A program made the position numbers and the translations under genes. A stretch of DNA of 56,327 nucleotides, filler included, from Sluysia triapertura (taxonomy: Eukaryota): assembly GCA_046118255.1 (NCBI GenBank). It is 4 parts of 4 records of this genome, joined end to end, with 100 filler letters (N's around TTAATTAATTAA, not from the genome) between each part and the next. Parts side by side here need not be neighbours in the genome. Positions count along the whole stretch, not along the records: positions 25,788 to 44,946 come from JBJNIA010090900.1; 3 more parts are not named here. One strand, given 5' to 3'. The notes below the pieces were generated by a model. The model ran no database searches. It saw only the letters and a program-made list of their open reading frames with translations, and was not told where the DNA came from. Every line of letters starts with the position of its first letter. Position 1 is the first letter of the stretch. Positions 1 through 56,327 of this stretch are shown here, piece by piece.

Positions 1-2009
1 TGTCATTTTTGTCATTTGAGTGATTATCAGCATTTAGTAAAGATTTTCATTAATAATAAATTGTATTACGAATTTTTTGTTTAATAGTACAATATCGACT
101 TAGTTTTGATTTTTATTGTCAGGTACTTAAATTTGGGGATAATAGTTAGTGATACTATACGAGAAGATTGAAAAAATATATTTGATATATTGACTATTTA
201 AATTATCGAGATTCCTTTAAGCTAACCAAGTTAAAATTGAGTCGTAATAGCCAGTAATTTTTAAAGACGCAACACTATTATTTAAATCAACCATGTCCAA
301 AAGTACATATAAAAAATATTTAAAAAATTTGTGGAAAACAATGGGTCTATTATATAAAAAATCAGAACGCCAAAACATTTTTCACGTAACATATTACTAG
401 TAAATAACTATTGAAATTTAGACTAGGGTCCGATAAGTTAAATCTAGAATATCATCCCTCTAATAAAATTTATTAACTTGATTAATACTTTAATAAAATT
501 AGATATTTTCACTTTTAATCTATAGTATTGAGAAAAATATGAAGTTAAATAATAAATATTTTCCTTTTTATTAATTTATACAACTTTATTTTATAAATAT
601 TTATATTATGAAAAAAAATAAACTATTTTACCGATTCTCAATAAATATAGAAACTCGAAGTACTTAAACACATCTAATTACATCTTGCTGCTTTTTAAAT
701 TGACCAAGGATCAATTATTTTAATATTATGTGATGTATGACAAAATTATGATATGGAATATTATTTGACAATGTATTTTGAAGGCCTTCGGAATACTTTT
801 TTAATTTTTTTGCTGATGTCTATCAAATATATCAAATATTTATATCCCAAAAATATCGCAGTACGTTTATCTTTTTGTTATGTTTGACTTTTTGGATTTT
901 AACAATTATTATCACTTCATCTGATAATACAATGTTTATCAATACTATTTTCTAATAAACGTTTTTGAGAAAATCCCAATCTTTTTTTGAAAAAATTGAC
1001 AATTAATGCAATCCAATGCAATTGTTGCTTTTAGTGTTTTTCATTTGTTAATCTTTATTAATTTCGTTCGTCGATCATTTCCTCTCCTTGTTCTAAAAAT
1101 TTTATTTTTTTAATAGAAATTTTCTAATACAAAGTTTTTAAATAACTTTTGTAAATATCTAAACCCTATATTTACTTAATATTGCCTATACCAGCAAAAA
1201 TTTTGTTTAAACAAAACATATGTTTCCTTTTATATATTATTTTGAAACCAAAAAATGGCTTAATAATATATAACAGGAAAGATACATATTTTTGACCTTT
1301 CATCTTTAATCACATATTCTGCTAATATTCTTGGGTTTTTTATATTTAGTATTTTCAATTTTAAATTGTTCAAAAAATGTCGACTAATGCTGATAGTGAT
1401 AATGAAATATTTGCAGACAAATTATCATGCAATTAAGACTTATATTTCTGAAGATAAGAACTAAGAAATAACATGATAGTTCTGACATTACAAAGATTGC
1501 AAAAATACAAAGTATCTCCAAAACATATTTTGAGTAGTGATGAAAGTGATGTGGGCAGTGATATAAGTGATTGGTCTGAAATTGAATCAAATTCTGATAG
1601 AGATCTTAAACAATAAATCATGCAAAGTTTGTATGAAATGCCTACAAAAATTAATTTTCAGAATATCATTAATTTAATTTTTATTCTTAGCACGGATTTC
1701 TATAGGACTTTCTAAAGTTGACTCAACCATCACTTATACTAACATTAAACTATGAAAATAAGGAAAAAAATATTATAAAGTATTATACAATATTATAAAA
1801 CAAATATCGTACTTCTTCCAAAGAGGCTGTTAATAAAATATGTCGAAATTGTTCATAAATTTGATGAGCAGATACGCGAATTCGAGCATCGTTTTTGTAT
1901 CGTCGACACTGAAAGCATAATACGAAATCTATTACTATTACTAGTACTATTATTATTATTATTATTATTATTAATATTATTATTATTATTATTGTAGCAC
2001 AATATTCAT

Positions 2010-11231: not shown

Positions 11232-11729
11232 TTAACTAATATTAAAGAGAAAACTGGTTGCATAATTATGTAAATTATTATAGAACTAAATTGGTTAGTA
11301 GTAGAATGTTTATATAAAAAGAATTTGATTATAATGAAGAAACTACACTATGGAAATTGAATGATTGTTGGTTATATTTCGATATAAGCAAAAATATTAT
11401 TATTATTATTCGGATATCAAGATTAGCCCGGGAATTCACATTAAAAATTTGGTTTTTCTACCGACCTTGATAATTAGATCTTGGACAATAGCTTAAATTA
11501 AATAGACCTTTAAAAAGGAGTTAATAAATTTGAATTTCCAATTACTATTTTGCATTTCTCCATCTCTATATATCTGTTACAAATTAAGATAAATAAACAA
11601 TAATTAATAATTAACAAAAGTTATTTATTACATTAATTTAAATTATTTTAAAATAAATTTTTTCAGTTAAATTCTTTAATTATATTTATATTGTAGTCGT
11701 ACTTTCATTTGTGTACTATTAATTCTTAA

Positions 11730-11951
11730 CCCTTTCAGCCCCGAATTTTTTTTCCTTAAGATATATGGTGATTTATTGTCTTTATAGATGATTTAGGAAA
11801 AATGTATGAAAATTGTAAATATTGACGTGAAGTAAAAATATATAGGTCAAAGTTCAAACAAATATATATTGAAAAGTTACGAAAAAGTTTATAAAAAGTT
11901 AGTAAAAAAAATCGCCATTGACGCCATATGGCGGTCCCGGGGCTGAAAGGG
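11730..11951. mobile_element. piggyBac-type MITE (family A), complete
   Basis: Perfect 14-bp TIRs CCCTTTCAGCCCCG / CGGGGCTGAAAGGG with TTAA on both flanks (11726-29, 11952-55). Confidence 0.9.
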
Positions 11952-14357: not shown

Positions 14358-14675
14358 CTACCTTATTGTCTTCCAAACATCACAGAATTTGTATTTCAAT
14401 GAATTTAAGAATTTTACTGTTTCATATAAAGGATTTTTGGTTTGAACCAATGTAACACCATCGATTTTATCTAACATGTTGTCAACATCTAAATAATTTG
14501 GATGATTATCTAGATCAATTGAACATTCTGAGGTATGCAAATAAATTTCAATAGCTATGCGAGCTGCTTCTATATAAAATTGATGGTTTAACAGTACGAC
14601 GTGTGAAGGTAATGATGACTTACGAAGACATTATGGATGAAAATCAAATAGATTGTCTATCATTAAAAAGTGAAT
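14358..14675 (-). pseudogene. NAA15: NatA auxiliary subunit (NAA15/NAA16) fragment, disabled
   Basis: Translation [63 protein letters not shown] versus NAA15 HF.[59 protein letters not shown]. TAA at 14631-14633 replaces the conserved Tyr, and there are internal deletions. Confidence 0.75.
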
Positions 14676-18038: not shown

Positions 18039-18986
18039 ATACAAATGGAAAACAATTATTGTCTATTGAAATTGAACAAATTTTGGCCTATAGAGATGCA
18101 AATTTGGGAATAAGAAAAATGGATTTTTTCAGGATCCCGAGAATTATGGCAAGAAAATAAGAAGAGGGTTGAAACCAAAGTTGACACCTAGAGACAAAAG
18201 GAGCATCTTCATGACGTCACTGACAGAAATGTCTCTAAAACAGATTAAATTGGTCCATCAGCTTCCTTGTTCAATAAGAACTGTCCAAAGGGTTGTAGGC
18301 AACTGCCAACACTTAAGATATTAGAAGAGGAAGCCCAAACCAAAACTCACAGCAAAGCACAAGTAGGCACGGGTCACCTGGGCACAATTATGCATATCAT
18401 GGATTTTAAAATGGCATCAAATTATATTCAGTGACTAGAAAAAATTTAATCATTATGGCCCCAATGGATGCCAGTTTTACTGGCATGACCTGAGGAAGAG
18501 TCCGGATTACTTCAAAAAACGTGGATTCGTAGGTGGTTCGGTGATGGTCTGGGCAGCCTTTGGTTGGAATAGAAAAACAGAAACTGTGTTCTTAGACGGT
18601 AAACAAAACTCACAGAAGTATATTTAAACACTCAATGACTTCCTCATCCCCATCGCAGGTCAAATTGAAGACTGAAACTGGATCTTCCAACAAGAAAATT
18701 GTTCAATCCATTGTTCCGCGGAAACAACTAAATGGTTTGAAGATAACCAAATTCGGGTTTTAAGTTGGCCATCTTGTATCCCGGACTTAAACCCCATTGA
18801 GAACCCCTGGGGTTTACTCGTTCGGAAGGTTTACCGGAATGGACACCAATTTGACAATGTAAGGGATATGAAAGCAGCCATTCTTTCTACTTGGGAAGAA
18901 ATCAGCTTGAGGAGATGAAAAATCTAGTAAGCTTAATGCCTAAAAGACTTATTGAAGTCTTAAAGAAGAATAGTGACTTTAATTAA
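18039..18986 (+). pseudogene. Tc3-like (Tc1/mariner, DD34E) transposase, disabled
   Basis: Manual translation: NGKQLLSIEIEQILAY..QDPENYGKKIRRGLKPKLTPRDKRSI..WHQIIFSD*KKFNHYGPNGCQFYWHDLRK..GGSVMVWAAF..WIFQQENCSIH..WPSCIPDLNPIENPWGLLVRKVY..MPKRLIEVLKKN. There are 34 residues between the second catalytic position (mutated D>E) and E. Several in-frame stops and frameshifts. Confidence 0.92.
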
Positions 18987-19737
18987 ATGTCGTTTATCTG
19001 ATAGTTAAATATTTTTGTCATAATCAAATTAACGGATATAATTTTTAATAAATTATATTATTTTTTTATAATTATTCAATAATTATTATATGAGATGCAT
19101 TAAAAAAACTAATGATGTTATATATCTGTCGTCCACCTTAGGACAACTAATTAGTAGTTATGTACATTTAGACCACTTTAATTACTCAAAAGCTTTTATT
19201 TGGTATTGCAAAATCTGTTTTGTTATAACATAAACATTTGCGAATCATTAGTTGTTGCATAAGGAATTCCAAGAATATTTAACTTTTTATCTAAAATTAA
19301 ATTTATAAAACTATTCTACAATTTTTTCAAGATTTATTTAAAAAACAAAATTAATTTTATGTCAATCGGAATAATTTTTAATGCGTATTATAAACAGTGA
19401 CTTAAAAACTAATGACCACATTAATCATTCATTTAACTTTAATTATATTAATTATTCATTGAAACTATAATGATTCCCAATAGATAAATAAATACAATTT
19501 CTTTATTCTATTTAAATTCGTCATCAATTTATAAATTCAAAAAATTTTATCAATAGTTTAACTGAATATGTTTTTTATTTTATTAAATTTCATTTCATTT
19601 TCATGTTATGTTTAATGTATGTGACCTTATAAGTTATTTCCAGACATCTAATATAATATAAATTAAATTATTTCGACTAAATTAATTTTAATTTTATAAT
19701 GTAATATATTTCAAAATAATAGTCAATATTTAAAAAT

Positions 19738-20841
19738 ATGACGCATAATTTTCCATTACCAGATTCGTTTGTTGAAACATTACTTGAATTAACATGTCTT
19801 ATAATGGCAAAAAAGCCCAGCAATTATATACAATTTTGTGAAAAATATTTTGGTGTTCTTATGCGCAAAGAAAATATCGATGTTCTCTTAGTCGATTCTG
19901 AACCAGCTTTAGAACATTCGCGTACCATTAGTTCTTTAAGCATAGAAACTTCTGAGTTAGAAATGCGCAGACAGGGTGTTATGGGTGAGCAAGTAGATCT
20001 TGAAGAAACTGAATCATTTGATGTGTTTCAAAAAACTGATGAACAAAAAACAAGATTAAAATATAATTGTTTAAAAATATCATTATTGTCTAGTTTATCA
20101 GATAAAGATTTAGATGAAGTTATTGTATATATGAAAGAAGTTCGTATTAAAACTGGTGATGTCATTATTAAACAAGGTGAACGTGGGGAAACATTTTATA
20201 TTATTGAAAAAGGTATTTTTGAAGCGTCAATTTCCAAAAACGGTGTTACAACACCAATTAAAACTTATGAAGATGAAGGTTCGTTTGGTGAATTAGCACT
20301 TATTCTAAATTCACCACGAGCTGCCACAGTAGTTGCTAAAAGTAATGGTATTTTATGGGCTTTGCCAAGAAGAGTATTTCGTCGGTTAGTATTAACAAAT
20401 GCTCAAAAAAAGCGTGAATTGCATACTCAGAGTTTATCAAAAGTGGCAATTTTACAGACATTAACCGAATATGAAATATCAAATATAGTTGATTCAATAA
20501 TTTCACGTGACTGTAAACCAGGAGAAATTATTATAAAGGAAGGTGAACCTGGTAAAGAAATGTTTTTCGTAATAAGCGGTACTGTAAAAGTATATAAACT
20601 AATTGGTGATTTTGAAGAAGCAGTTGCCATTTTAGGTCCAGGCAGTTATTTTGGTGAAGTTTCATTGCTTGCGCATTTACCACGTACAGCTTGTGTTAAG
20701 GCGATAGAAGATACACAATTAGCAATATTAGATGTCACTAGTTTTGAAAGATTAATGGGTCCTTGTATTGAAGTAATGAAGCGTAATATGGAAAATTACA
20801 GAAATCAGTGGAAAGAAACATTTTCTAAAACTAATAATTAG
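19738..20841 (+). CDS. PRKAR2: cAMP-dependent protein kinase regulatory subunit (RII-like, PRKAR2-type), intronless, 367 aa
   Basis: N-terminal RIIa-type dimerisation/docking domain (FPLPDSFVETLLELTCLIMAKKPSNYIQFCEKYF). Inhibitor site RRQGV. Two cNMP-binding domains with PBCs FGELALILNSPRAAT and FGEVSLLAHLPRTAC. RII-like C-terminus FERLMGPCIEVMKRNMENY. Uninterrupted ATG..TAG ORF. Confidence 0.95.
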   Translation: MTHNFPLPDSFVETLLELTCLIMAKKPSNYIQFCEKYFGVLMRKENIDVLLVDSEPALEHSRTISSLSIETSELEMRRQGVMGEQVDLEETESFDVFQKTDEQKTRLKYNCLKISLLSSLSDKDLDEVIVYMKEVRIKTGDVIIKQGERGETFYIIEKGIFEASISKNGVTTPIKTYEDEGSFGELALILNSPRAATVVAKSNGILWALPRRVFRRLVLTNAQKKRELHTQSLSKVAILQTLTEYEISNIVDSIISRDCKPGEIIIKEGEPGKEMFFVISGTVKVYKLIGDFEEAVAILGPGSYFGEVSLLAHLPRTACVKAIEDTQLAILDVTSFERLMGPCIEVMKRNMENYRNQWKETFSKTNN

Positions 20842-35847: not shown

Positions 35848-37302
35848 TCAGTTCGAATTGCTTGAAATCAATAAAACTAGTAATGATTTTAGTAGTTTTA
35901 AACTCTTTATTAATTTTAATTTAAAGTCAAGGAATACTTTATTTAAATTATTAAATGTAAAATCTTTTAAATTATTATATGTAAAATTATTAGAAGTCTT
36001 TAGAATTAAAAAATTACAAAACATAATCAAAAACAAATTGACAAATACAAATTTATTATTTATTATTACATTAAAAAACTTTATTTTTGTTATTTCTTGC
36101 AGTTGAGAGTCTAAAACAAAATGAAAATTTAAGTTATAAACAAAGTAATGAAAAGAATTAATTACATTATGAGGATACTGTGAAACTTGTAAAATCCACG
36201 CCATCATATTTTGGTCTTGAAACAGTAAGCATTCTGTGCATTTAATTTTAATAGAATTGACTTTGATATTATTTTGAGATAAATAAATTTCTAATAGAAC
36301 AAAAACATCTGCTGTGTCACGCTTGGATAATTTTCGCATTAGTTCTATAAAAACATTATACAATTCACTAATTGTGATATCATTGCCGCCCCTACTAATA
36401 CTCATACAAACGTTTGTAAAACCACCACTAATAACATCATCATAATCAGCAATTTTATTCAATTTATCTTTTTTAGACTTTTTATAGACGATGTTTATTT
36501 TATAATTTAAAATCTAATAACTTGAGAACACCTCTGAAAATTCGATCAATTAACATAAATATAAAATCAATTGTCATGTTATCATGGACAAGATGGATGA
36601 GATAACTCATCACAAGATGAGCAGAATTACTACGAACATTTATTTCTTCTTTCGTATTTAACACAAAATAAGGTAAGTGATCATTATGAAAAGATGTAAA
36701 ATATTTGAATAAAAATGCAATATGTAGTAGAACATTAACTTGTGCTACAAATTTTAAATTATCTTTACTATAAGTAGTCATCAACATCTTAAATGAGATG
36801 GCGATACTTTCATTAATACGACCGTAGCCTTTCAGAAAATCAATTAAGAAAATCATAGATTCATCTACATTATTCATTTGACTCAATGCAGTATTACTTT
36901 TTTTCTCTTTAAACATATTCTCTACAAGTAAATGAGAATCAAAAATATAATATATCTAGTTAAAACGTTCGTTATTAGTAACTGAACTTGTTCTTTGAAA
37001 AATAATAAATGATTACTATATGTATAAATTGGATCCAATGAAACAAAATTAAAAATTTTAAACAATTCTTTTATTCATTCTGAAAGTGGAACTATGTGTC
37101 CTGGATTGTGTACAAGAATTGAATAGCATCGTTCAATACACTCAAAAATGACACATTTAAATCTTTCATATGCATCACCAACTAGTAAACTAATTAATTC
37201 GCTGCTGTTCTCAGATGATACTAAAGAAAACTCTATTAAGATATCAGATATTTGGCATTTAGAATCATAATGTGCTCCAAATAGCTTTTTAGTTTCATTC
37301 AT
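35848..37302 (-). CDS. Unidentified multi-segment gene or pseudogene (helical protein)
   Basis: Three collinear minus-strand ORFs (75, 138, ~100 aa) with protein-like composition. Apparent GT-AG intron at ~36166-36113. A single-base frameshift separates ORFs 36500-36916 and 35848-36462. Confidence 0.4.
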
Positions 37303-38399
37303 CTGTGAATTTTTATCTATTCGGTTAGACGTTTATTTATTTGTTTCTCAATATTATTGACGTTTTGAAACTCTCTAATTTTTCAATTTTTATAATTGTG
37401 ATTTTGCGACTGTCAATTTTTATGAACCAATTAATCTGATTGGACGACCATTATTAAAATTAAAACAGAAACATTGAGTGAAATGCCACCATCAGTACTG
37501 ACATAAATCTATTTACAGTAATGAGCAATGTCAGTACTGGTGATGGTAGATACAATTTTTAATATTTAGATAAAATTATGAAGTTTAATGTTAATAATAA
37601 TAACAATAATGTTGCTATTATTATTAACATTAATTAAATACAAAATATGTAAAAATACATGAATTCCGTGTAAATTCCACACGATCTTTCTATTATTTTT
37701 CTTTATATTTCTTACATATTTTGAATTCAAACTAAAAATAATTAAATTGAGTGTAATAACAATAATAATAAGAGAAACGATGTTATAGTTATTATTGCTA
37801 TTAAACTTCATAAACTCTTGAATTCTTTAAAAACCGAACACGATCTTATTTTAAATGCTTTATATTTCTAAACATATTAGAAACTAAAAATTTTTAAGTA
37901 AAGGTTGGTTTAAGCGAATGTGAAAGAGATACATTATAGTAAAAGTTTTAGTATATTTGAAAGGCTATTGTACAATGTTGATAATGTGATTTGTTCTCTT
38001 TCTATTTTTAAGTGGTATTGTCTTTTGTGCTGTTAGGGATTATGTGATAACAAATGATGAATTTACAATGTCGAAATTGATTCGAAGGCCTCGGGTGGCT
38101 AATTACGGATGAGGTTGTAGTTTGATTGTTATGAATATCGAGTAAGATTTTTTTGATGGATCTGTTGATGTAAATTGATGATATTGGATGTAAGTGTGGT
38201 TTGTATGTATGAGATTCTGGCAGATGAACTGTTTTAGTGAGCGTAGAGAAGATAAATATGTGAATATTAGAGTGTTAAAGGATTATTTTTTAAGAAAAAT
38301 TTAATAACAGTGAAAGTTGACCACCACAATGATAATAGTCGTAAACGATGGAGATGCTTACGTCTTAGTATCAAATTGTCATTTGTAGTGTTTGTTTGC

Positions 38400-39100
38400 A
38401 GTTTCTCTGTCCTGGCTCGATATTAATATTCTAGAACCATTTGTTCACCAAGTTTTAGAGAAGTTGAGTACTAGGCTGAAAAGTGGTTAATGTATGCTCA
38501 TCATAAATAGACATCAGGTTCGTGATTTCAGAGCTGTCATTGTAGGTATTAGTAACATAGCCAGACTATGCATTGACAACCATATGGAAATATTCTCTCA
38601 ATGTCATTTGGTTTCAGAGATCAAAAGTTTAATTGAAAATGTAAAGGAGAATGTCTTTTGTGAGTTTGTTTTGCGAATTTCTAGTGAATTAATCAAGATT
38701 GGTGAAGATAGATTTAATATGACTCAAAATATGCTTGGTTTTTCAATGAAAACAGATATGACGAGAACAATCTATATCGGAGCTTCAATCTCATGCCGAC
38801 AATTATTAATATCCTCTGTGACTACTTCGAGCTATGTGAGGGAAATTTGATTGTCATTATGCGAGTGGGAGAAAGTCTTATATTGCATATGAGGTTGACT
38901 AAAGTTTGGAATTACTACGTCAAAAAAGACAAAAAATCCCATGTCATGTGTTCCTTGATAAAAGAAATCAAGAACAAGTCCAAGATTTCAATTCGAACGC
39001 AGCGACTATCTAATACAGAATCGTCGATGTCTATTAAATAATATTTGATCAAATGTTATCTGTTGATCAAACCTGTATATCGATATGACACTAGACAACA
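38400..39100 (-). mobile_element. Ty1/Copia integrase relic
   Basis: HIDI (cf. HSDV.GP), KYYLIDIDDS (cf. KYF..FIDD.SR), IFPYGCQCIV (cf. LRVFGC.AYV), LKSRT*CLF (cf. KLD.RS..CIF), in the correct order. Confidence 0.45.
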
Positions 39101-41534
39101 GTTATTTGCCGTATAAACTCTTTGGTGATTCGAGACAATAACTTTTTTAAAGTAAGTTTTAATTGTAACAACGCTTATAACAATATCTTTAACATCAATG
39201 TTCATTTATTTCTTTTTGTTTTTAGAGTGTCACAGAAACCAAATCCGAAACGTACTGGTGAAATCATCATTAATAAAGAATCATCGAAAATAAACTTTAA
39301 ATGTCTTATCATTAGTAATAAAATAGTTGTAAATTTAGTTCTTCTTTTCGTTAATAATTATTTAAACTTAATCAAAAAGCAATTAAATAATTTTTGATCT
39401 TTGAGCAAGTATATTGTAACAAAGTAAATAAAAATAAAACTTCTATTAGTTTTGATATTTATGAATTAAAATTGAATCTTTTATTTAAACTAATCAATAT
39501 CAAACTACAACAGCAGTGTCATCGGTTTTATAAAGCTATTCAATCATCTAAAACTTCCAAATAGACGAGAAGTGAAATTAACTGTAACAAAGCTTTGAGT
39601 CCTTAATCGAACTGACACATATTTCCTTTATTTATTCGTTATTGTTTTACAATTCGAATAATAATTATCTGATAATTAATCTAAATTTAAATTACTTTAA
39701 AAAATTTAAGATGGAATTTAAATTTTTACACCAATGTATTTATTTATATAAGGAGAAATAATAACAAAAAAAACAAACTTTAAAAATATAAAATCAAATA
39801 CGTATATTTGGCAAAACCATTTTATTAAAAACTAAATCTCCTAAATAGTGCCACTAACTAATACTTCGAAGTACTCACTCCGTTAACATATTGCATCTAA
39901 GTAAACTAGATATGTAGATATTAATATGTATTATAATATGTATTAAAACGTTAAGAAAACTATATATTTTGTTTAAATCAATAAAATACAAATTAATAAT
40001 AATTATTTTTATAAAGTTTAATTAAAATAATTAAGTAAAGTACAATTTATTATCGATATTATTATATTTAATAATCTAAAAATTTGTAATTATCAGAAAA
40101 GTTTAAAATACAATTAACGAGTTTTGTAATTATCAGAAAAGTTTAAAATACAAATTATCTACATTTAAATTTAAAAATTTCGTATAATTATAATTATCAA
40201 AAATTAATGTAAATTAATGTTTCCATTTAAAATTAATGTCTCTATTTAAAAGATTAATTTAAAAGATTAGTTTAAAAAACAATATAAATAGACTTACAAA
40301 GTCTTACAAAAACACATAAATTTCTGTTTTAAAATCTTTTACGTCTTACGGAGAAACTTCGAATACTTGTCAGAGAACTTTCGATTTCGATTTGGATTTG
40401 AAAAAACTTACTTGGATTTGAAAAAAAGTTGTTTGAATTTGAAAACCTTTTGGATTTGGAAAATTCTGATTTTGGTTTACAATTGGTTTGAAGAAGATTT
40501 GGAATTAAGAAACTTGTTGGATAATTTTCAATTTGGATTTGCAACTGATTTGAAGAAAATTTGGATTCGATTAAACTCTACATTGATAGTAGAATTTGAT
40601 TCATCGATTACAGAAGATTACAAGAAGAAGAATTAATTTTTCGGAAATTTATTTGGAATTGAAAAAGACTTGTAAGCTATTTTTAATAAGTTTATATAGT
40701 AATATACTATATTAAAATATACTAAAAATCTTATATTCTTTCACAAACCCAAAGATTAACTCTGGGTCAAAATCACTTTAAACTCTGCTGAAGAAATATT
40801 AAGAGAAATCTTAATAATTATTTAACTTATTATTTATATTATTAATCATTTTTGTGTTCCTATTTGCGTATTTTTAGATTGAGTAATTTTTGTAAAAAAT
40901 TTTGATCATAATAAAAATTCGTAGAGTACAACAAGTACTAGCCTTTGTTTATTATTATTGAAAAAGAAAAGGAATTCGTTATTAAATAGTAAAAATTTTA
41001 TTGTCAAGAAAGTTATAATAACAACTTCACAATTTAATAAAAGACCCTCGATCCAAAGTATAGGAACGATCTTTCGTAGTAATACTCACCACCCATAATC
41101 AAACCAATAATTAAGTCTTCCGTAGGAAATAAATCTTAAATTATTGGCGAACCCAATAAGGATAAAAAAAATCATAATTGTTAAGTTATTAAACTAAGAA
41201 AACTTGAACAAAATCTATCATTACTATATTTACCAGTAAATAGGATAATTCTTGAAACATTGACTTTAGGCACGCCTTATAATGATAGCTGTTTAGTAAA
41301 ATTCATTTGTGAAGTGTATTTAAATATTAATAAGTTTTTACATCTTAAATATGTTTAATATGTTTAATTTCAACTTAGTGAATGTTGACAATAATGCAAT
41401 AAGAACCAAATATTCTGATAACTAATTGACATTTCATGTCATCTTTTAATATACATATAGATCATATTAATACAATAACTTCTAGACAAAGTATTCTTTA
41501 TACCATTCATTCACAAGTACAGAACTAGTCAAAA

Positions 41535-41970
41535 AATTCATTTAATATTATAAAGAAATAGCTGTCTACTTTTACCCAACCATGTTCATTGTGGATTATC
41601 AATTTCCAATAGAAATACCTGGAAAATGGGAAGCTACACTGGTCAAATTTACATGTAATTTTTGCAAAATTTCAATGGAACATGAAACAAAATATTATTT
41701 AATAAAAATGAACCTTTAAAGCTAACATAAATTCATTTTTTGATAAGAAAAATAAACTTATTGATAAATCAGATGTTGAAGAAAAAAGATAAAATAAAAT
41801 ATTTCAACGGACCTATGATTAATACATTTATGGAAAATAATAAAATAATGCTAAAACTCAGTATAACGATATTGACAGTAAAATGGAATTATTATCCATT
41901 GAAAAATTTAATATTGAATTTAGATTTTCCAACCAAAATACCTATAAGATACTGGTTATTTTATAATTGA
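41535..41970 (+). pseudogene. Polinton/Maverick minor capsid (penton) N-terminal fragment
   Basis: SFNII..NSCLLLPN..MFIVDYQFPIEIPGKWEATLVKFT resembles the penton N-terminus FY.TLPSNSS...P.N....F.V.L..PI.L.G.WEV.L.EI. It lies on the same strand directly upstream of the major capsid relic. Confidence 0.65.
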
Positions 41971-42079
41971 TATTTTTAAATTCACTAATGATAAAAGGCT
42001 TCGTATTTAAGCTAAATTTGAAAGTGAATCAATACAATAAAAATAATTATAGTGATGCAGAACTTAAAATGCAAGCGTC

Positions 42080-43045
42080 GTGAACTGATCTTAATGATAC
42101 ATTATTATTTGTCCCGTTGAAAAATACAAAATCCGATATAAAGATATTCAAGTAACTAATTGCATATTTCATTCATTTTGGAAAATGTGATTTTATCATT
42201 CAGTAGTACTCAAGTTGAAGGTGAAAATTTCCAACATTCACAAAAATCAATATTAGAAAATATTCTACATTATAGTATTCTGAAGCTTTAACATTAAACT
42301 TGATTTAAATAAAAGTCGTAGAGTATAATGGATTGGAAAATCAAAAAAGTTTGTAATATGTGGTTCATTTTTGAGTCAACCAAAATATTTAATTCCAGAT
42401 GTAAATGCTTACTTGAAATTGTTAAGAAATAAATCAAGCTTTTGTCTTGTGTATGATTCAGATAGTGGTATTTATAATTTGTTTTGAAAAGTGCGACACA
42501 TATTTAAGAAGAGTTGAAGTTGAGCCATCATTGTTAGTTGTACATCAATTAGGTCTACAAAAATTGTAATTTATCCATTTCGTCAAAGAAAATTTATAGT
42601 GTATAGTATACCAAATGGAAAAATTGGATTTTATAAAGATCAAATTTTTGGTTATATTTCAATCTTCAAACACAATTAATAGAACTATTAAAAAAGATGC
42701 ACACAGAATAATGTTGAATCAATTAATGAAAGTCGAATTATAGACTCTCAAGAAACTTTGATAGTATGCATACAGTCGTTAAATATTATGTGCAATAAAT
42801 TATTACAAATTTAAGATAATGAAATTATAAACCATGGAATAGGAATGGCTGTTATCAAACTAAAATATTCTTTCTTTATATTTATAGGTTCAACTGATTT
42901 TGATGTCGATCAAAAATAATTACCACAACAAGAAAATTTGAGATTTCACCTTAAATTTACTAAATGATTGGAATAACCAACAATTGTAATCGATAATGAA
43001 ATAAAAATAAGAAATAGCCGTCTAATTACATTTCAGATAAAGTGA
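42080..43045 (+). pseudogene. Polinton/Maverick (adintovirus-like) major capsid protein (double jelly-roll), decayed
   Basis: Collinear translated blocks across frameshifts: TDLNDTLLFV; VTNCIFHSF/ENVILSFSSTQVEGENFQHSQKSILENILHYS; FLSQPKYLIPDVNAYLKLLRNKSSFCL; YLRRVEVEPSLLVVHQLGLQK/IYPFRQRKFIVYSIPNG..KDQIFG; NHGIG..YSFFIF; ENLRFHLKFTK..DNEIKI. These match recalled Polinton PY motifs (YIDL..TYLYV, NNFLHSLFSQVDV..YPYRAYIETLLNY, FNQ..YLLNGV..LKL.RS...FCL, VRKV...PS..LAH...YP....FTIP.G...DNLF.G, GNLR....F....FDN.IEI) in the right order. Confidence 0.8.
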
Positions 43046-44800
43046 GTTTCTTACATTATATTCTAATTAGTTCTTTAGAAATTAATCAAATTACTCTACT
43101 TCAAAATGAGTTTAAAGTGTATACCATCATCTTTTGATGAAGATAGTTGTATAAAAATTATGTTGCGACTTCAAATTTATTATTTACTATAACTCAATCT
43201 TATCTCGTTTAGCTTGAAATAGTCTTAATAATTTCAATAGTCAGTATATCAGATATAATTTTGTCGTAATTTTCTCTCTTAATATTAATAACGATTGGCC
43301 CAAATTTAACTCTTGAAAATTAAATGAAAACTAAGTCAATTATGTACTATTAAACAAAAATCCGTAATATAATTTATGGTCAATGAAAATCTTTACTAAA
43401 TGCTATGAATCACTAAAATGACAAAAGTAACAATTATGTTTATAATAAAGTCAAAGACACTACAATCTAATTAAGACTAAAACAACCAGAAGTGACGTAA
43501 CAATCACTAAAAATATGAATATCAAGAAAGTTTAGAAACGTAATGATGATTAAAAATATTTTAAAATAAATTGGGTAGAGTGTCTCCCACTAAATTATCT
43601 TACATTTAGCTAAATATCAAATGTACGTAAAGTGTTTTTCTCAAAATTACCTTAAAAATAACTGAAAATTAAATATAACTTTTAACAAAAATTGTGCGGG
43701 AGTTTTCAATCAATGTTACCTTAAAAACCGGCTTAAAAATTAAAAGAAAATGATGTAATATTAAAATTATCCAAATTAAAATAAAATCAGATATTTATTT
43801 TAATTTAACATTTTCCAAATAGCTAAACATTAGTAAAGTAGTTGAAATCAGAAATTACAAGAGATAACTTTCTCAACAAGATTTAAATAACAAATAAGCA
43901 AGAACTGTAAAGAAGATATGAATAGATTTTATATAAAACAGAATTACGCAATAATTAAGTTCTTGTAAAAGAAAAGAATAAAGAAAAAATTTATTCAATT
44001 TTTATTTTTATTATTATTATTAGCATTATTTTGTTTTATTTTATTTTAATATTTTAAGGTGTAAAAATTTTATTTTTATATTTTTTAAGATTTCGTGTGA
44101 AAAATAAAATTATGAAAATATTATGAAAATTATTATTTCAATTATAATAAAATTAAAATTATTATTATTATAAATAAAAAAATAACTAAAAAGAAACTTC
44201 TCGAAAGAAGTTTATTTGATTAAATTAAATTTTAAAAAATGTCTTTATGTCTATATAAAGACATACAAAGAAATTAGAACGCCATTAGCAAATAAAGAAA
44301 TCAGAGAGAAAATTGTTATGCCATTTTGAAAAGGCATTACAAAAAGATTATTCGTGGCTCCATTTAATAAATCTAATCAGTAAAACAATATTTATATTAA
44401 TATTTCCAATCGATAATTATGTATATACATAAGTATACACAAACAAATTCAAATGATATAATTTATAAGCATAACGTAACATATTTTACGAAAATTAAAC
44501 ATTTTGCAACGTCCTCTGTTTTTTCCAAATGAACTTATATTGAATATTTTAATAAATTTGTAGTCGAATTTTATTAATCGAATTGAGCAATACTTTACTG
44601 TCTGATGCTTAATCGATCTAAAGATATGAATAATATGCTACAATATGTTACGTACATACGAAGTCATTCCTTTATTCATACGAAGTCATACCTTGGTCAG
44701 ACTAAAACAAAAATATTAAAACAAAATTTTAAAAATTAAGTTACTGATGTTAATTTAAAAATAAAAAAATCAATAAAATTCTAATAAAATAAAATTTTAA

Positions 44801-44946
44801 CCCTTTCAGCCCTGAATTTTTTTTCCTTAAGATATATGGTGATTTATTGTCTTTATAGATGATGATTTAGAAAAATGTATGAAAATTGTAAATATTGACG
44901 TGAAGTAAAAATATATAGGTCAAAGTTCAAACATAAATATCTATTG
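44801..44946. mobile_element. Second copy of piggyBac-type MITE family A, cut by contig end
   Basis: TTAA+CCCTTTCAGCCCTG, then near-identical to 11730-11870. Ends at the N spacer. Confidence 0.9.
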
Positions 44947-53640: not shown

Positions 53641-55826
53641 GTTCAAAAGCGAGAATTTATACGTGTTTAGTTTCTGCATTTTTATCGCCAAAAAATATTC
53701 AAGACTTTCATAACATTAGCATTGATTAATTACTATCATAATTTTGAATTCAACTATTCATTTTATTGGTAACGTGTATAATTATTTAAAATAATGTATT
53801 ATATGATATCATTTTAATTGAAAATTTATTCTTACTAATTACAAAAAATGATGCAACATACATTAAAAGACCATCATTTTTCATTTGTTATTTAATACCT
53901 CTTTTTGATCTTTTGCTTTCAAAAATCATAGATTATATATTACAATACAAAATTTAATTTGATTATTTAAAACTATAAATAGCTCTGTTTTTGAAAATGA
54001 AATAATCAAATTTTAACGAATTATATATATGAGGTTTTGAAAAATAAAATGCATACGCGTGTTTTAGGTAGTTTAAGTTAGGATTTAGTGTTTGCAAAAT
54101 GGAAATTATATTTAATAATGGATTTTGGTGGGATAAATGAACGTATAAATGAGCGATTATTTTATAGACAAATCAAGGAACTATAATATTTTTAAATTTA
54201 TATTAATTTGTCGACTACAAACGAAGGTAACGATAAACACTTACAAACTCAAAATAAATAAATGAAACAAGTTATAAAAAGTAAATTACACTTAAACTTA
54301 CTTAGACCTTTCTTAGCTCTATGCAGTGCTTAATAGAATTTAAATATTTCATCAACATCTGCGATACATTAAGTAAATTAATTTCGTTGTTAGGTTTTAT
54401 ATAAGATGTTTTTGGTACTGCAATATATTCATTGAATTTATTTAAATGCTTCTTGAGTACATTTTACTCAACTTTGTCAATATCAATTAATTTAGATCCA
54501 TATTTGTTCGGTATTGTCTCTGCTGTTTTTTTGAAAATATTTTTAGTTTTTCTTTTGAGAAATATATTTCATACGAAAAAAGTTTCTAGATTTATGATAA
54601 AAATTTTTTGCTTTTGTTAATTCAGTCGATTTTGGTAAAATCGGAATTGCATTATTAACTTGCATTGTATGAGAAAAGTAACTTGTTTTAATTTACGAGA
54701 ATGTAAAAGTTTTATATTCCAGTTGTATGCATACATAATAGATCAAATATCTGAATATGTCTATGTGGATATAAGATTTTATGAATGTATAAATAGCTAG
54801 GAAGAAATCATTTAGTCTTTATCATTGTGTTAGTAAATATTAATAACATTTTAAATGATATTAGTCATTTTAAATAAATCAGTGGAAGGTGAAACGCTAT
54901 GAATGCCAATTAAAAGTTTATTCATTGGTTATTTTTAAAAATGATAAATTCAGAATTATGATGTTTAAGAACCAGTATAATATATTTCTTAATCATTGAG
55001 AATTCTAACTGATTGTGTGTAACCGTGCACAGTTACATTTAAGATGGACGAATAAATCAACTAAACTTAACAACTAAACCATGTTTGAACCTGGAATTTT
55101 CCTGGCCTCAGTTATTTGAAGTACAGGTGATTCGTTATTTACGCATTGTAAGAGTGTATATAAAATTATTACAATTTTATGTAATAATTTTTCTAAACTA
55201 TTTTTCAAAAATTTCAAATGAATCTTTTATAACGATATCGAAATGATAAAGTAGATCTCCAAAATGATGGTGAAATGGAGAGACGACAAACCTATAAATT
55301 TTTGAGATGAATAAGCTAGAGTTTCAAAATAAAGGTTTAAAAAAGAATTAGAAAAATGTGGATCATTAATCATTATTTAATATTTGATAAGGAGTGTTAA
55401 TTGAATTATTTAATTGCACTATAAGAGATTTTTACAAAATATTAATAAATGTATTACCTAGTGTAATTGATGCATAAAATAAGAGGCGAACTAAAAGAAT
55501 AATGATAATGTGATACCACATTCAAAAATTAATTTTGGTTACAAATACATTTTAAGCTGTTATTGCGGTTATTAAATTATACTTCATTGTTTTATAATTT
55601 CGAACTATTAAAAATATACTTTTTGTAAAAAAAGAAATTTTATTTTAACAATTATGTGCTTAAAGCACTTAAAACTTAAAATTAAAACGTTGAAATCATT
55701 TTTTATGCCTCTGAGGCCTATTAACGTAAAAATAAGACAAAATTACTCTATTAGTATAATAAAATCCATGATGAATCAATAATGAACGTACGAAAGCGTT
55801 AAAACAAAAAGGAACAACAATAGTAA

Positions 55827-56327
55827 TTAATACTTCAATATGATAATCAAATTGTTCACGGAGTCTAACAAACCTCGCAGCGCGTCGCCAATCCATTGAC
55901 CATTTTCGGAACCTTCAACTGCTTCTATCGGAATCATACCTCGAGAATCATGTTTTAAATTTTCGGGAAATTGAGCTGGGAGAGGTTTCTTCCAGATTCT
56001 TTCACAGTACAATATATCCTTTCACATTTCGATGAATCAAACAATCAGTATAATAATCCGTTGCACGAAGTGCTGAAAAATTTTCACGGGCCATTGGCAC
56101 TGCTTTAAGTTTGATATCACAGTTGCCCGAAAACATGTTTGTTATTGCTGCCGAGTATAGTTCTCCACAAGCCAACCCACGAATTATTGATGAATATAAT
56201 CGAACGTTTCCCTTATCTTCCGCGTGATAATTGAATATTTTTTTACCTGGATTTTGAATAAATTCATAAAACATATCCCAAACGTCCTTCGTTATAAATT
56301 TAATTTGCTTTTCTTTTAAAAAATAAT
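55827..56327 (-). pseudogene. Unidentified coding segment, frameshifted, running off the window end
   Basis: Open frame from the window end (..KDVWDMFYEFIQNPG..RATDYYTDCLIHRNVKGY), then a shifted frame CERIWKKPLPAQFPENLKHDSRGMIPIEAV..WIGDALRGLL. GC visibly above background. Confidence 0.35.

What the first reader, a model, noticed from the sequence alone, without database searches (positions are those of the whole stretch)
41535..43045. Hidden endogenous Polinton/adintovirus-like virus: penton + major capsid genes
Seen: no long ORF, but stitching frames gives an ordered series of peptide blocks covering almost a whole major capsid protein, preceded on the same strand by a penton-like N-terminus. 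Established: Polintons/Mavericks encode a double jelly-roll MCP and a single jelly-roll penton. Inference: this host was colonised by a capsid-encoding polintovirus. The recoverable residues (SQPKYLIPDV, VVHQLGLQ, IYPFRQRKF) differ from the consensus I recall, so it may be an undescribed lineage.
Basis: partly seen in the sequence, partly recalled or inferred. Interest (0 to 1): 0.75.

Follow-up and report, generated by a model that had tools for sequence, protein, structure and literature searches.

The report
Decayed Maverick virus capsid fossil
This is a broken, 1.5-kb leftover of the capsid genes of a Polinton/Maverick-type virus-like transposon in an AT-rich animal genome, likely a flatworm's; such fossils are common, so the find is real but ordinary.

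Summary
Window 42051-43030 (+) is a major capsid protein (MCP) pseudogene: 117 of 118 intact relatives hit the window by tblastn (best E 1e-37; reversed-window control, one hit at 0.003). It covers 325 of 408 profile positions through about 9 frame switches and 6 stops. A penton N-terminal scrap lies upstream (41585-41692). The intact relatives fold as double jelly-rolls and sit in canonical Polinton/Maverick loci (ATPase, integrase, penton, PW, MCP, protease, polymerase on the other strand). In the window, most of the penton, PW, protease, ATPase, polymerase and terminal repeats were not found, so this is a fossil fragment, not a provirus. The 'undescribed lineage' idea gets little support. 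The gene nests among intact relatives on a long end branch and keeps only 42 of 63 near-invariant columns (intact rows 92% or more), which points to decay. The host is likely a flatworm (weak tree support). Capsid-encoding Polintons are already listed for Schmidtea, and 96% of vertebrate Maverick loci are reported as degraded. I could not test whether this roughly 408-aa MCP clade is the Schmidtea one.

The parts
41585..41692 (+). Remnant of the N-terminal part of a Polinton penton (minor capsid, PX) gene; profile positions 31-66 of 361
   Evidence: Frameshift-aware score 62.8, 0 of 100 shuffles reach it, best in the whole window; tblastn E 1.5e-4 from 2 of 664 locus ORFs. The relatives' penton family starts with the same kind of motif block as the published PX rows (compared by eye).
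41693..41984 (.). Unassigned spacer where the rest of the penton and the PW/core gene would be expected; about 0.8-1.2 kb is inferred to be missing
   Evidence: No match above shuffles to the middle or C-terminal penton profile or to PW. Penton-to-MCP start distance is about 440 nt here (inferred) against 1264-1636 nt in 15 of 16 intact pairs.
41985..42050 (+). Possible decayed N-terminal part of the MCP gene (weak)
   Evidence: Appears only as part of tblastn sum-statistics chains; not significant alone (14 of 100 shuffles reach it).
42051..43030 (+). Pseudogene of a Polinton/Maverick double jelly-roll major capsid protein (PY/hexon); profile positions 39-406 of 408, about 9 frame switches and 6 in-path stops
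   Evidence: Closest intact relative P0040, 40% identity over 366 columns. Fold shown on the intact relative P0003.

Best explanation
Window 41585-43030 holds a broken major capsid gene and a scrap of a penton gene that match Polinton/Maverick elements, likely left by an old germ-line insertion that has since lost most of its genes and decayed, and it is predicted to make no capsid protein. Inferred history: an element with the layout ATPase, integrase, penton, PW, MCP, protease and an opposite-strand polymerase integrated through its retroviral-type integrase. Deletions then removed the flanking genes and about 1 kb between the penton start and the MCP, and point changes and small indels accumulated without selection. 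Shown: homology, order and strand of the two pieces, the breaks, and the absence of detectable neighbours. Inferred: integration route, deletions, neutral decay, flatworm host.
For: tblastn 117 of 118 relatives, best E 1e-37, reversed control 0.003. Frameshift-aware scores against shuffles. Relative P0003 folded with a 52-row alignment at pLDDT 90; Foldseek's top hits are double jelly-roll capsids: PBCV-1 Vp54 E 4e-15, iridovirus and mavirus MCPs, and a Cotesia sesamiae Mombasa bracovirus protein E 2e-26, a source for which a Polinton with a fragmented MCP is listed. Atlas: DJR-like clusters, score 0.98, TM up to 0.96. Relatives' neighbours carry rve (E 1e-12), Pox_A32 (2e-6) and Peptidase_C5 (3e-6) domains and a polymerase that aligns at E 8e-164 to one with PF03175. 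Penton-PW-MCP are adjacent in 25 of 25 loci where both penton and MCP were called, the order published for vertebrate Mavericks. Decay: end branch 1.0 against a median of 0.25; 42 of 63 near-invariant columns kept against 92% or more in intact rows; GC 25.7%, close to the window's 24.4%, against 31-39% in ten intact MCP genes. Three contigs of run X1 match 41185-41768, 41820-42405 and 42623-43199 with no differences, at depth 9.8-18 like four listed pieces elsewhere in the laid stretch (10.9-17.8), and two of them bridge into the flanks.
Against: No Pfam family or solved-structure sequence hit for the window's own reading or for P0003/P0004; the fold is shown on a relative, not on the window's gene. 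No polymerase, integrase or terminal repeat is attached to the fragment, so its source element is typed only through relatives. Run X1 may be the window's own source sample, and 42406-42622 is not covered by the eight pieces shown. The conserved-column test defined its columns on the same intact rows, and misalignment near breaks adds to the window's loss. Host placement has only 91/85 support on a long branch.
Confidence: 0.9

Rival explanations
1. The fragment comes from an undescribed, deeply divergent polintovirus lineage, and its odd residues are lineage features.
For: Best identity to any intact relative is only 40-44%. None of the close relatives carries a name or organism. No relative was confirmed in IMG/VR. 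The clade's MCP is short (about 408 aa).
Against: The window row nests within a 9-row clade (98*) inside a 72-row clade (99*) of intact proteins, on a long end branch. Changes hit near-invariant columns. Motif cores are shared with most relatives. The wider family is huge: 2,560 clusters at E<=1e-30.
Confidence: 0.12
2. The capsid genes come from a Polinton-like virus or another double jelly-roll virus without polymerase and integrase, captured passively.
For: No polymerase or integrase is attached to the fragment. Structural hits include NCLDV, virophage and adomavirus capsids.
Against: Those hits are at 7-15% identity. The close relatives (33-44%) lie beside rve integrase, A32 ATPase, adenoviral protease and a family B polymerase.
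Confidence: 0.04
3. The gene is intact or domesticated in the host, and the breaks are sequencing or assembly errors.
For: The blocks are collinear over about 80% of the protein.
Against: Contigs of run X1 match most of the region with no differences or gaps. There are 6 stops and loss of one third of the near-invariant residues. A real exon of the same window (19723-20841) is open for 372 codons.
Confidence: 0.03
4. The match is chance similarity in AT-rich DNA.
For: None for the MCP. The penton scrap is short, and one HMM search missed it.
Against: Reversed-window and shuffle controls.
Confidence: 0.01

Closest known systems
Polinton/Maverick elements (polintoviruses; PY = MCP, PX = penton; Krupovic et al. 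2014, PMC4028283)
   Same: Double jelly-roll MCP with a penton gene upstream on the same strand. The intact relatives have the published module integrase, penton, PW, MCP, protease, plus ATPase and polymerase.
   Different: The window holds only a broken MCP and a penton scrap; PW, protease, ATPase, polymerase and terminal repeats were not found. In the closest relatives the ATPase lies on the capsid strand, whereas in vertebrate Mavericks it lies in the polymerase module.
Adintoviruses, Alpha and Beta classes (Starrett et al. 2021, PMC8502044)
   Same: Hexon, penton, adenain, FtsK ATPase, rve integrase and PolB gene set in the relatives. Weak Adeno_PX hits in a small gene of two relatives (E 0.01-0.02, below the cut-off). 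The closest relatives' PolB does not score with PF03175, as described for the divergent Beta class.
   Different: The Beta assignment is a lead only: no named adintovirus sequence was compared. The window has no PolB to class.
Schmidtea mediterranea Polinton-1_SM and Polinton-2_SM
   Same: Listed with MCP, penton, ATPase and protease (Table S1). The window's host is likely a flatworm.
   Different: Their sequences (supplement S5.doc) could not be read, so kinship with this clade is untested.
Degraded Maverick fossils of vertebrates (Barreat and Katzourakis 2021, PMC8097293; authors recalled)
   Same: 96% of 3,511 loci are eroded by stops, frameshifts and insertions, and many lack terminal repeats.
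   Different: Different host group; no orthologous copies were available here for dating.

Membership tests
Polinton/Maverick element | Double jelly-roll major capsid protein (PY) | tested here: met
   Window pseudogene is homologous to P0003-type proteins, which fold as a DJR. Broken in the window.
Polinton/Maverick element | Penton (PX) upstream of the MCP, usually one gene away | tested here: met
   N-terminal scrap at 41585-41692; the intervening PW gene and the rest of the penton were not found. The penton fold was not modelled; the Atlas gave unnamed clusters, two of the top three mostly viral with Preplasmiviricota commonest.
Polinton/Maverick element | Protein-primed family B polymerase | tested here: not met
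   No signal in the window (best 44, median 33). Present in relatives such as L001, L006, L025 and L071.
Polinton/Maverick element | Retroviral-type (rve) integrase in the same element | tested here: not met
   Nothing in 39500-41700. A weak integrase remnant lies 12 kb downstream, on the wrong side for the same element. Present in relatives.
Polinton/Maverick element | [quoted passage not shown] | tested here: not met
   Window scores at background level. Present in relatives.
Polinton/Maverick element | Long terminal inverted repeats and target-site duplication | tested here: not met
   Only two AT-rich 51-60 nt pairs in 36000-44700. None found in four long relatives either, which may be incomplete contigs. 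Target-site duplication cannot be tested without ends.
Beta adintovirus / group 1 Polinton | Divergent PolB outside pfam03175, and virion proteins clustering with the Terrapene exemplar | tested here: inconclusive
   L001, L006 and L025 PolB lack a PF03175 hit and L071 has a weak one. No named exemplar was available for clustering.
Schmidtea Polinton-1/2_SM family | Sequence kinship of MCP and penton | not testable with these tools
   Supplement S5.doc unreadable; no SM row was found by name in the penton alignment supplement.

The most novel reading that the evidence does not exclude
The compact-capsid (about 408 aa) clade, with a TBP-like gene and a divergent polymerase, is an undescribed flatworm-borne polintovirus family. 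Its dozens of open-frame members sit unassigned in metagenomes, and this fossil, plus a second TBP/integrase remnant 12 kb away, is a host anchor for it.
Probability: 0.2. Interest if true: 0.4.

Novelty: new member of a known kind. Interest (0 to 1): 0.17.

Why it matters
As it stands, little: degraded Maverick copies are the usual state of these elements. Its one use is as a host anchor. About 70 close, open-frame MCP relatives come from unnamed metagenome contigs, and a fossil embedded in a likely flatworm genome suggests where that clade lives. Planarian Polintons are reported as piRNA-silenced targets of SMEDWI-2 (PMC8532177, passages), so a named flatworm clade would give a tractable animal system for asking whether Mavericks make particles. 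The fragment itself cannot answer that.

Tried and rejected
No whole genome is held for this window, so other copies could not be counted. Pfam gave nothing for the window's frames or for P0003/P0004. PDB sequence searches were empty. A single-sequence fold of P0003 failed (pLDDT 30). IMG/VR gave 69 pattern matches, none confirmed. I suspected a penton C-terminus at about 41860-41930 by eye; rejected, as 53-75 of 100 shuffles scored as high. The MCP N-terminus is not significant alone. Summed depth and joints in run X1 at 80% likeness do not show further copies: depth over the MCP (292-590) is like that of many non-viral bins, and the joints have short sides. No RNA holder was listed. Three look-ups of earlier findings (place, words, sequence) returned nothing. 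No flatworm term was found in the adintovirus paper's supplement or in its preprint text. The nematode Polinton paper gave nothing on endonuclease VII or Schmidtea. Family files for searches were cut at 60 members, so 24 of 84 MCP-family ORFs (including L071, L073, L075) are missing from the gene-order count. The MCP tree kept 113 rows (proteins of 390 aa or more plus 9 locus MCPs); shorter hits and the 145 representatives were left out, and 45 of those 145 hit the window by tblastn, best E 9e-15.

Full report
Setting. The window is AT-rich eukaryotic DNA (GC 24.4%) with TAA microsatellites and few long ORFs. The one long ORF, 19723-20841, is an uninterrupted cAMP-dependent kinase type II regulatory subunit. 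In a 19-row tree it groups with two unnamed proteins (100/100) and then with schistosome proteins (91/85, not starred, long branch). The host is therefore an animal, likely a flatworm; this is not established. No whole genome was held.

Observation. One frame read with stops as X found two proteins of 408 and 419 aa at E 5e-21 and 3e-18. The first of these, P0003, found 118 relatives. 117 of the 118 hit the window by tblastn, 104 at E<1e-10 (best 1e-37); 300 of 301 aligned pieces lie at 41.5-43 kb on the + strand; the reversed window gave one hit at 0.003. A frameshift-aware profile alignment scored 278 against at most 27 in 12 shuffles. With a profile of 113 full-length relatives it covers positions 39-406 of 408 (325 positions) at 42051-43030, with 9 frame switches and 6 stops; these counts depend on my gap penalties.

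What the protein is. Pfam and PDB sequence searches were blank. P0003 folded with a 52-row alignment at pLDDT 90. Foldseek matched it to double jelly-roll capsids: PBCV-1 Vp54, iridovirus, mavirus and Sputnik MCPs. In the viral library the top hit was a Cotesia sesamiae Mombasa bracovirus protein (E 2e-26, 22% identity), a source listed with a fragmented Polinton MCP in PMC4028283 Table S1. The Atlas agrees (DJR-like clusters, score 0.98, TM up to 0.96). The family is large: 2,560 clusters at E<=1e-30.

Genomic context of relatives. Eighty metagenome loci were fetched. Their neighbours include rve integrase, A32-type ATPase, adenoviral protease and a TBP-like gene, and a long opposite-strand ORF that aligns (E 8e-164) to one bearing PF03175. 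Penton, PW and MCP are adjacent in 25 of 25 loci in which both penton and MCP were called (family files were cut at 60 members). This is the module described for vertebrate Mavericks (PMC8097293, passages) and for Polinton PX and PY (PMC4028283, passages). The labels penton and PW rest on position and on a by-eye match to published PX rows; the penton was not folded.

The penton and what is missing. Window 41585-41692 matches penton positions 31-66 with score 62.8; none of 100 shuffles reached it, and it is the best penton score in the window. A plain HMM search missed it, and only 2 of 664 locus ORFs found it by tblastn (E 1.5e-4), so it is real but slight. Nothing in 41693-41984 matches the rest of the penton or PW. 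The penton-to-MCP start distance is about 440 nt (inferred) against 1264-1636 nt in 15 of 16 intact pairs, so about 1 kb is inferred lost. Protease, ATPase, polymerase and an adjacent integrase were not detected, nor terminal inverted repeats.

Integrated, and the breaks are real. One public run holds the stretch. Three of its contigs match 41185-41768, 41820-42405 and 42623-43199 with no differences, at depths of 9.8-18, like four listed pieces elsewhere in the laid stretch (10.9-17.8); two bridge into the flanks. The run may be the window's source, and only 8 pieces were shown.

New lineage or decay? The closest intact protein is P0040 (40% identity over 366 columns). In a FastTree of 114 rows the window nests in a 9-row clade (98*) within a 72-row clade (99*), with an end branch of 1.0 against a median of 0.25. 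It keeps 42 of 63 columns that are at least 95% conserved among 71 close relatives, where intact rows keep 92% or more (the columns were defined on those same rows). Its GC (25.7%) is near the window's, while ten intact MCP genes have 31-39%. The QPKYL[IL]P core is in 84 of 113 relatives, and the window's variant of that peptide is in none. The oddness is therefore best read as a known type of motif plus neutral decay.

What is known. Polinton-1_SM and -2_SM of Schmidtea mediterranea are listed with MCP, penton, ATPase and protease (PMC4028283, supplement 1 read whole); their sequences were in an unreadable file. Orthopolintovirales-related insertions in Rhabditophora are reported (bioRxiv 10.1101/2025.04.19.649669, passages; its supplements were not seen). 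Planarian Polintons are piRNA targets (PMC8532177, passages). 96% of 3,511 vertebrate Maverick loci are degraded. Adintovirus classes are from PMC8502044 (part 2 of 6 and passages) and its preprint (passages); the closest relatives' polymerase lacks a PF03175 hit, a lead towards the Beta class. Six paper searches were run; none of the listings I saw names this clade, but the searches could not identify it by sequence.

Verdict. A real but ordinary fossil: a fragment derived from the capsid module of a Polinton/Maverick-type element. It is not filed as a complete member, because polymerase, integrase and terminal repeats were looked for and not found. Interest 0.17. The boldest open reading is that it anchors an unnamed compact-capsid clade to flatworms (probability about 0.2).

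Noticed in passing
window 54880-55107, 55510-55560 and 56063-56206 (+): A second, fainter Maverick-like remnant: a TBP-like piece (score 38.9, 0 of 30 shuffles; tblastn E 1e-4) followed by integrase pieces (51.3, 0 of 30; 41.4, 0 of 100), in the order seen in L001, L003 and L025. Likely a separate decayed copy; Pfam does not see it, and a non-Maverick integrase is not excluded.
   Followed up: partly
L001:2160-2618 and 9 other loci: Relatives carry a TBP (TATA-binding protein)-like gene (PF00352, E 3e-17), either upstream of the ATPase or downstream of the protease. TBP-like genes appear in figure legends of the adintovirus preprint.
   Followed up: partly
L022, L024, L025 (for example L025:5610-7684); L071: Some relatives have two penton-like genes, in tandem in L022, L024 and L025.
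   Followed up: no
L001:9125-12568, L006:2818-6489, L025:10212-14123, L071:13687-17781: The polymerase ORFs carry an endonuclease VII domain (PF02945).
   Followed up: no
window 19723-20841 (+): Uninterrupted, fast-evolving type II PKA regulatory subunit ORF of 372 codons, 45% identical to its nearest relative.
   Followed up: partly
window about 43200-43870: A very high-copy repeat lies just downstream of the MCP fossil (summed depth about 60,000 in run X1); 43356-43432 also matches window 1-77 in inverted orientation. Likely a small transposon.
   Followed up: no
window 35848-36955 (-): Two adjoining long ORFs (151 and 221 aa) with no Pfam family; possibly exons of an unidentified host gene or a decayed element.
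   Followed up: no
window 18676-18915 (+), 14361-14630 (-), 56005-56325 (-): A DDE_3 transposase fragment (E 2e-8), a NatA auxiliary subunit exon-like piece (E 1e-5) and a weak cyclophilin-like piece (E 8e-4).
   Followed up: no
window 11718-11867 and 44789-44940: A roughly 150-nt dispersed repeat at 95-97% identity; the second copy runs into an assembly gap.
   Followed up: no
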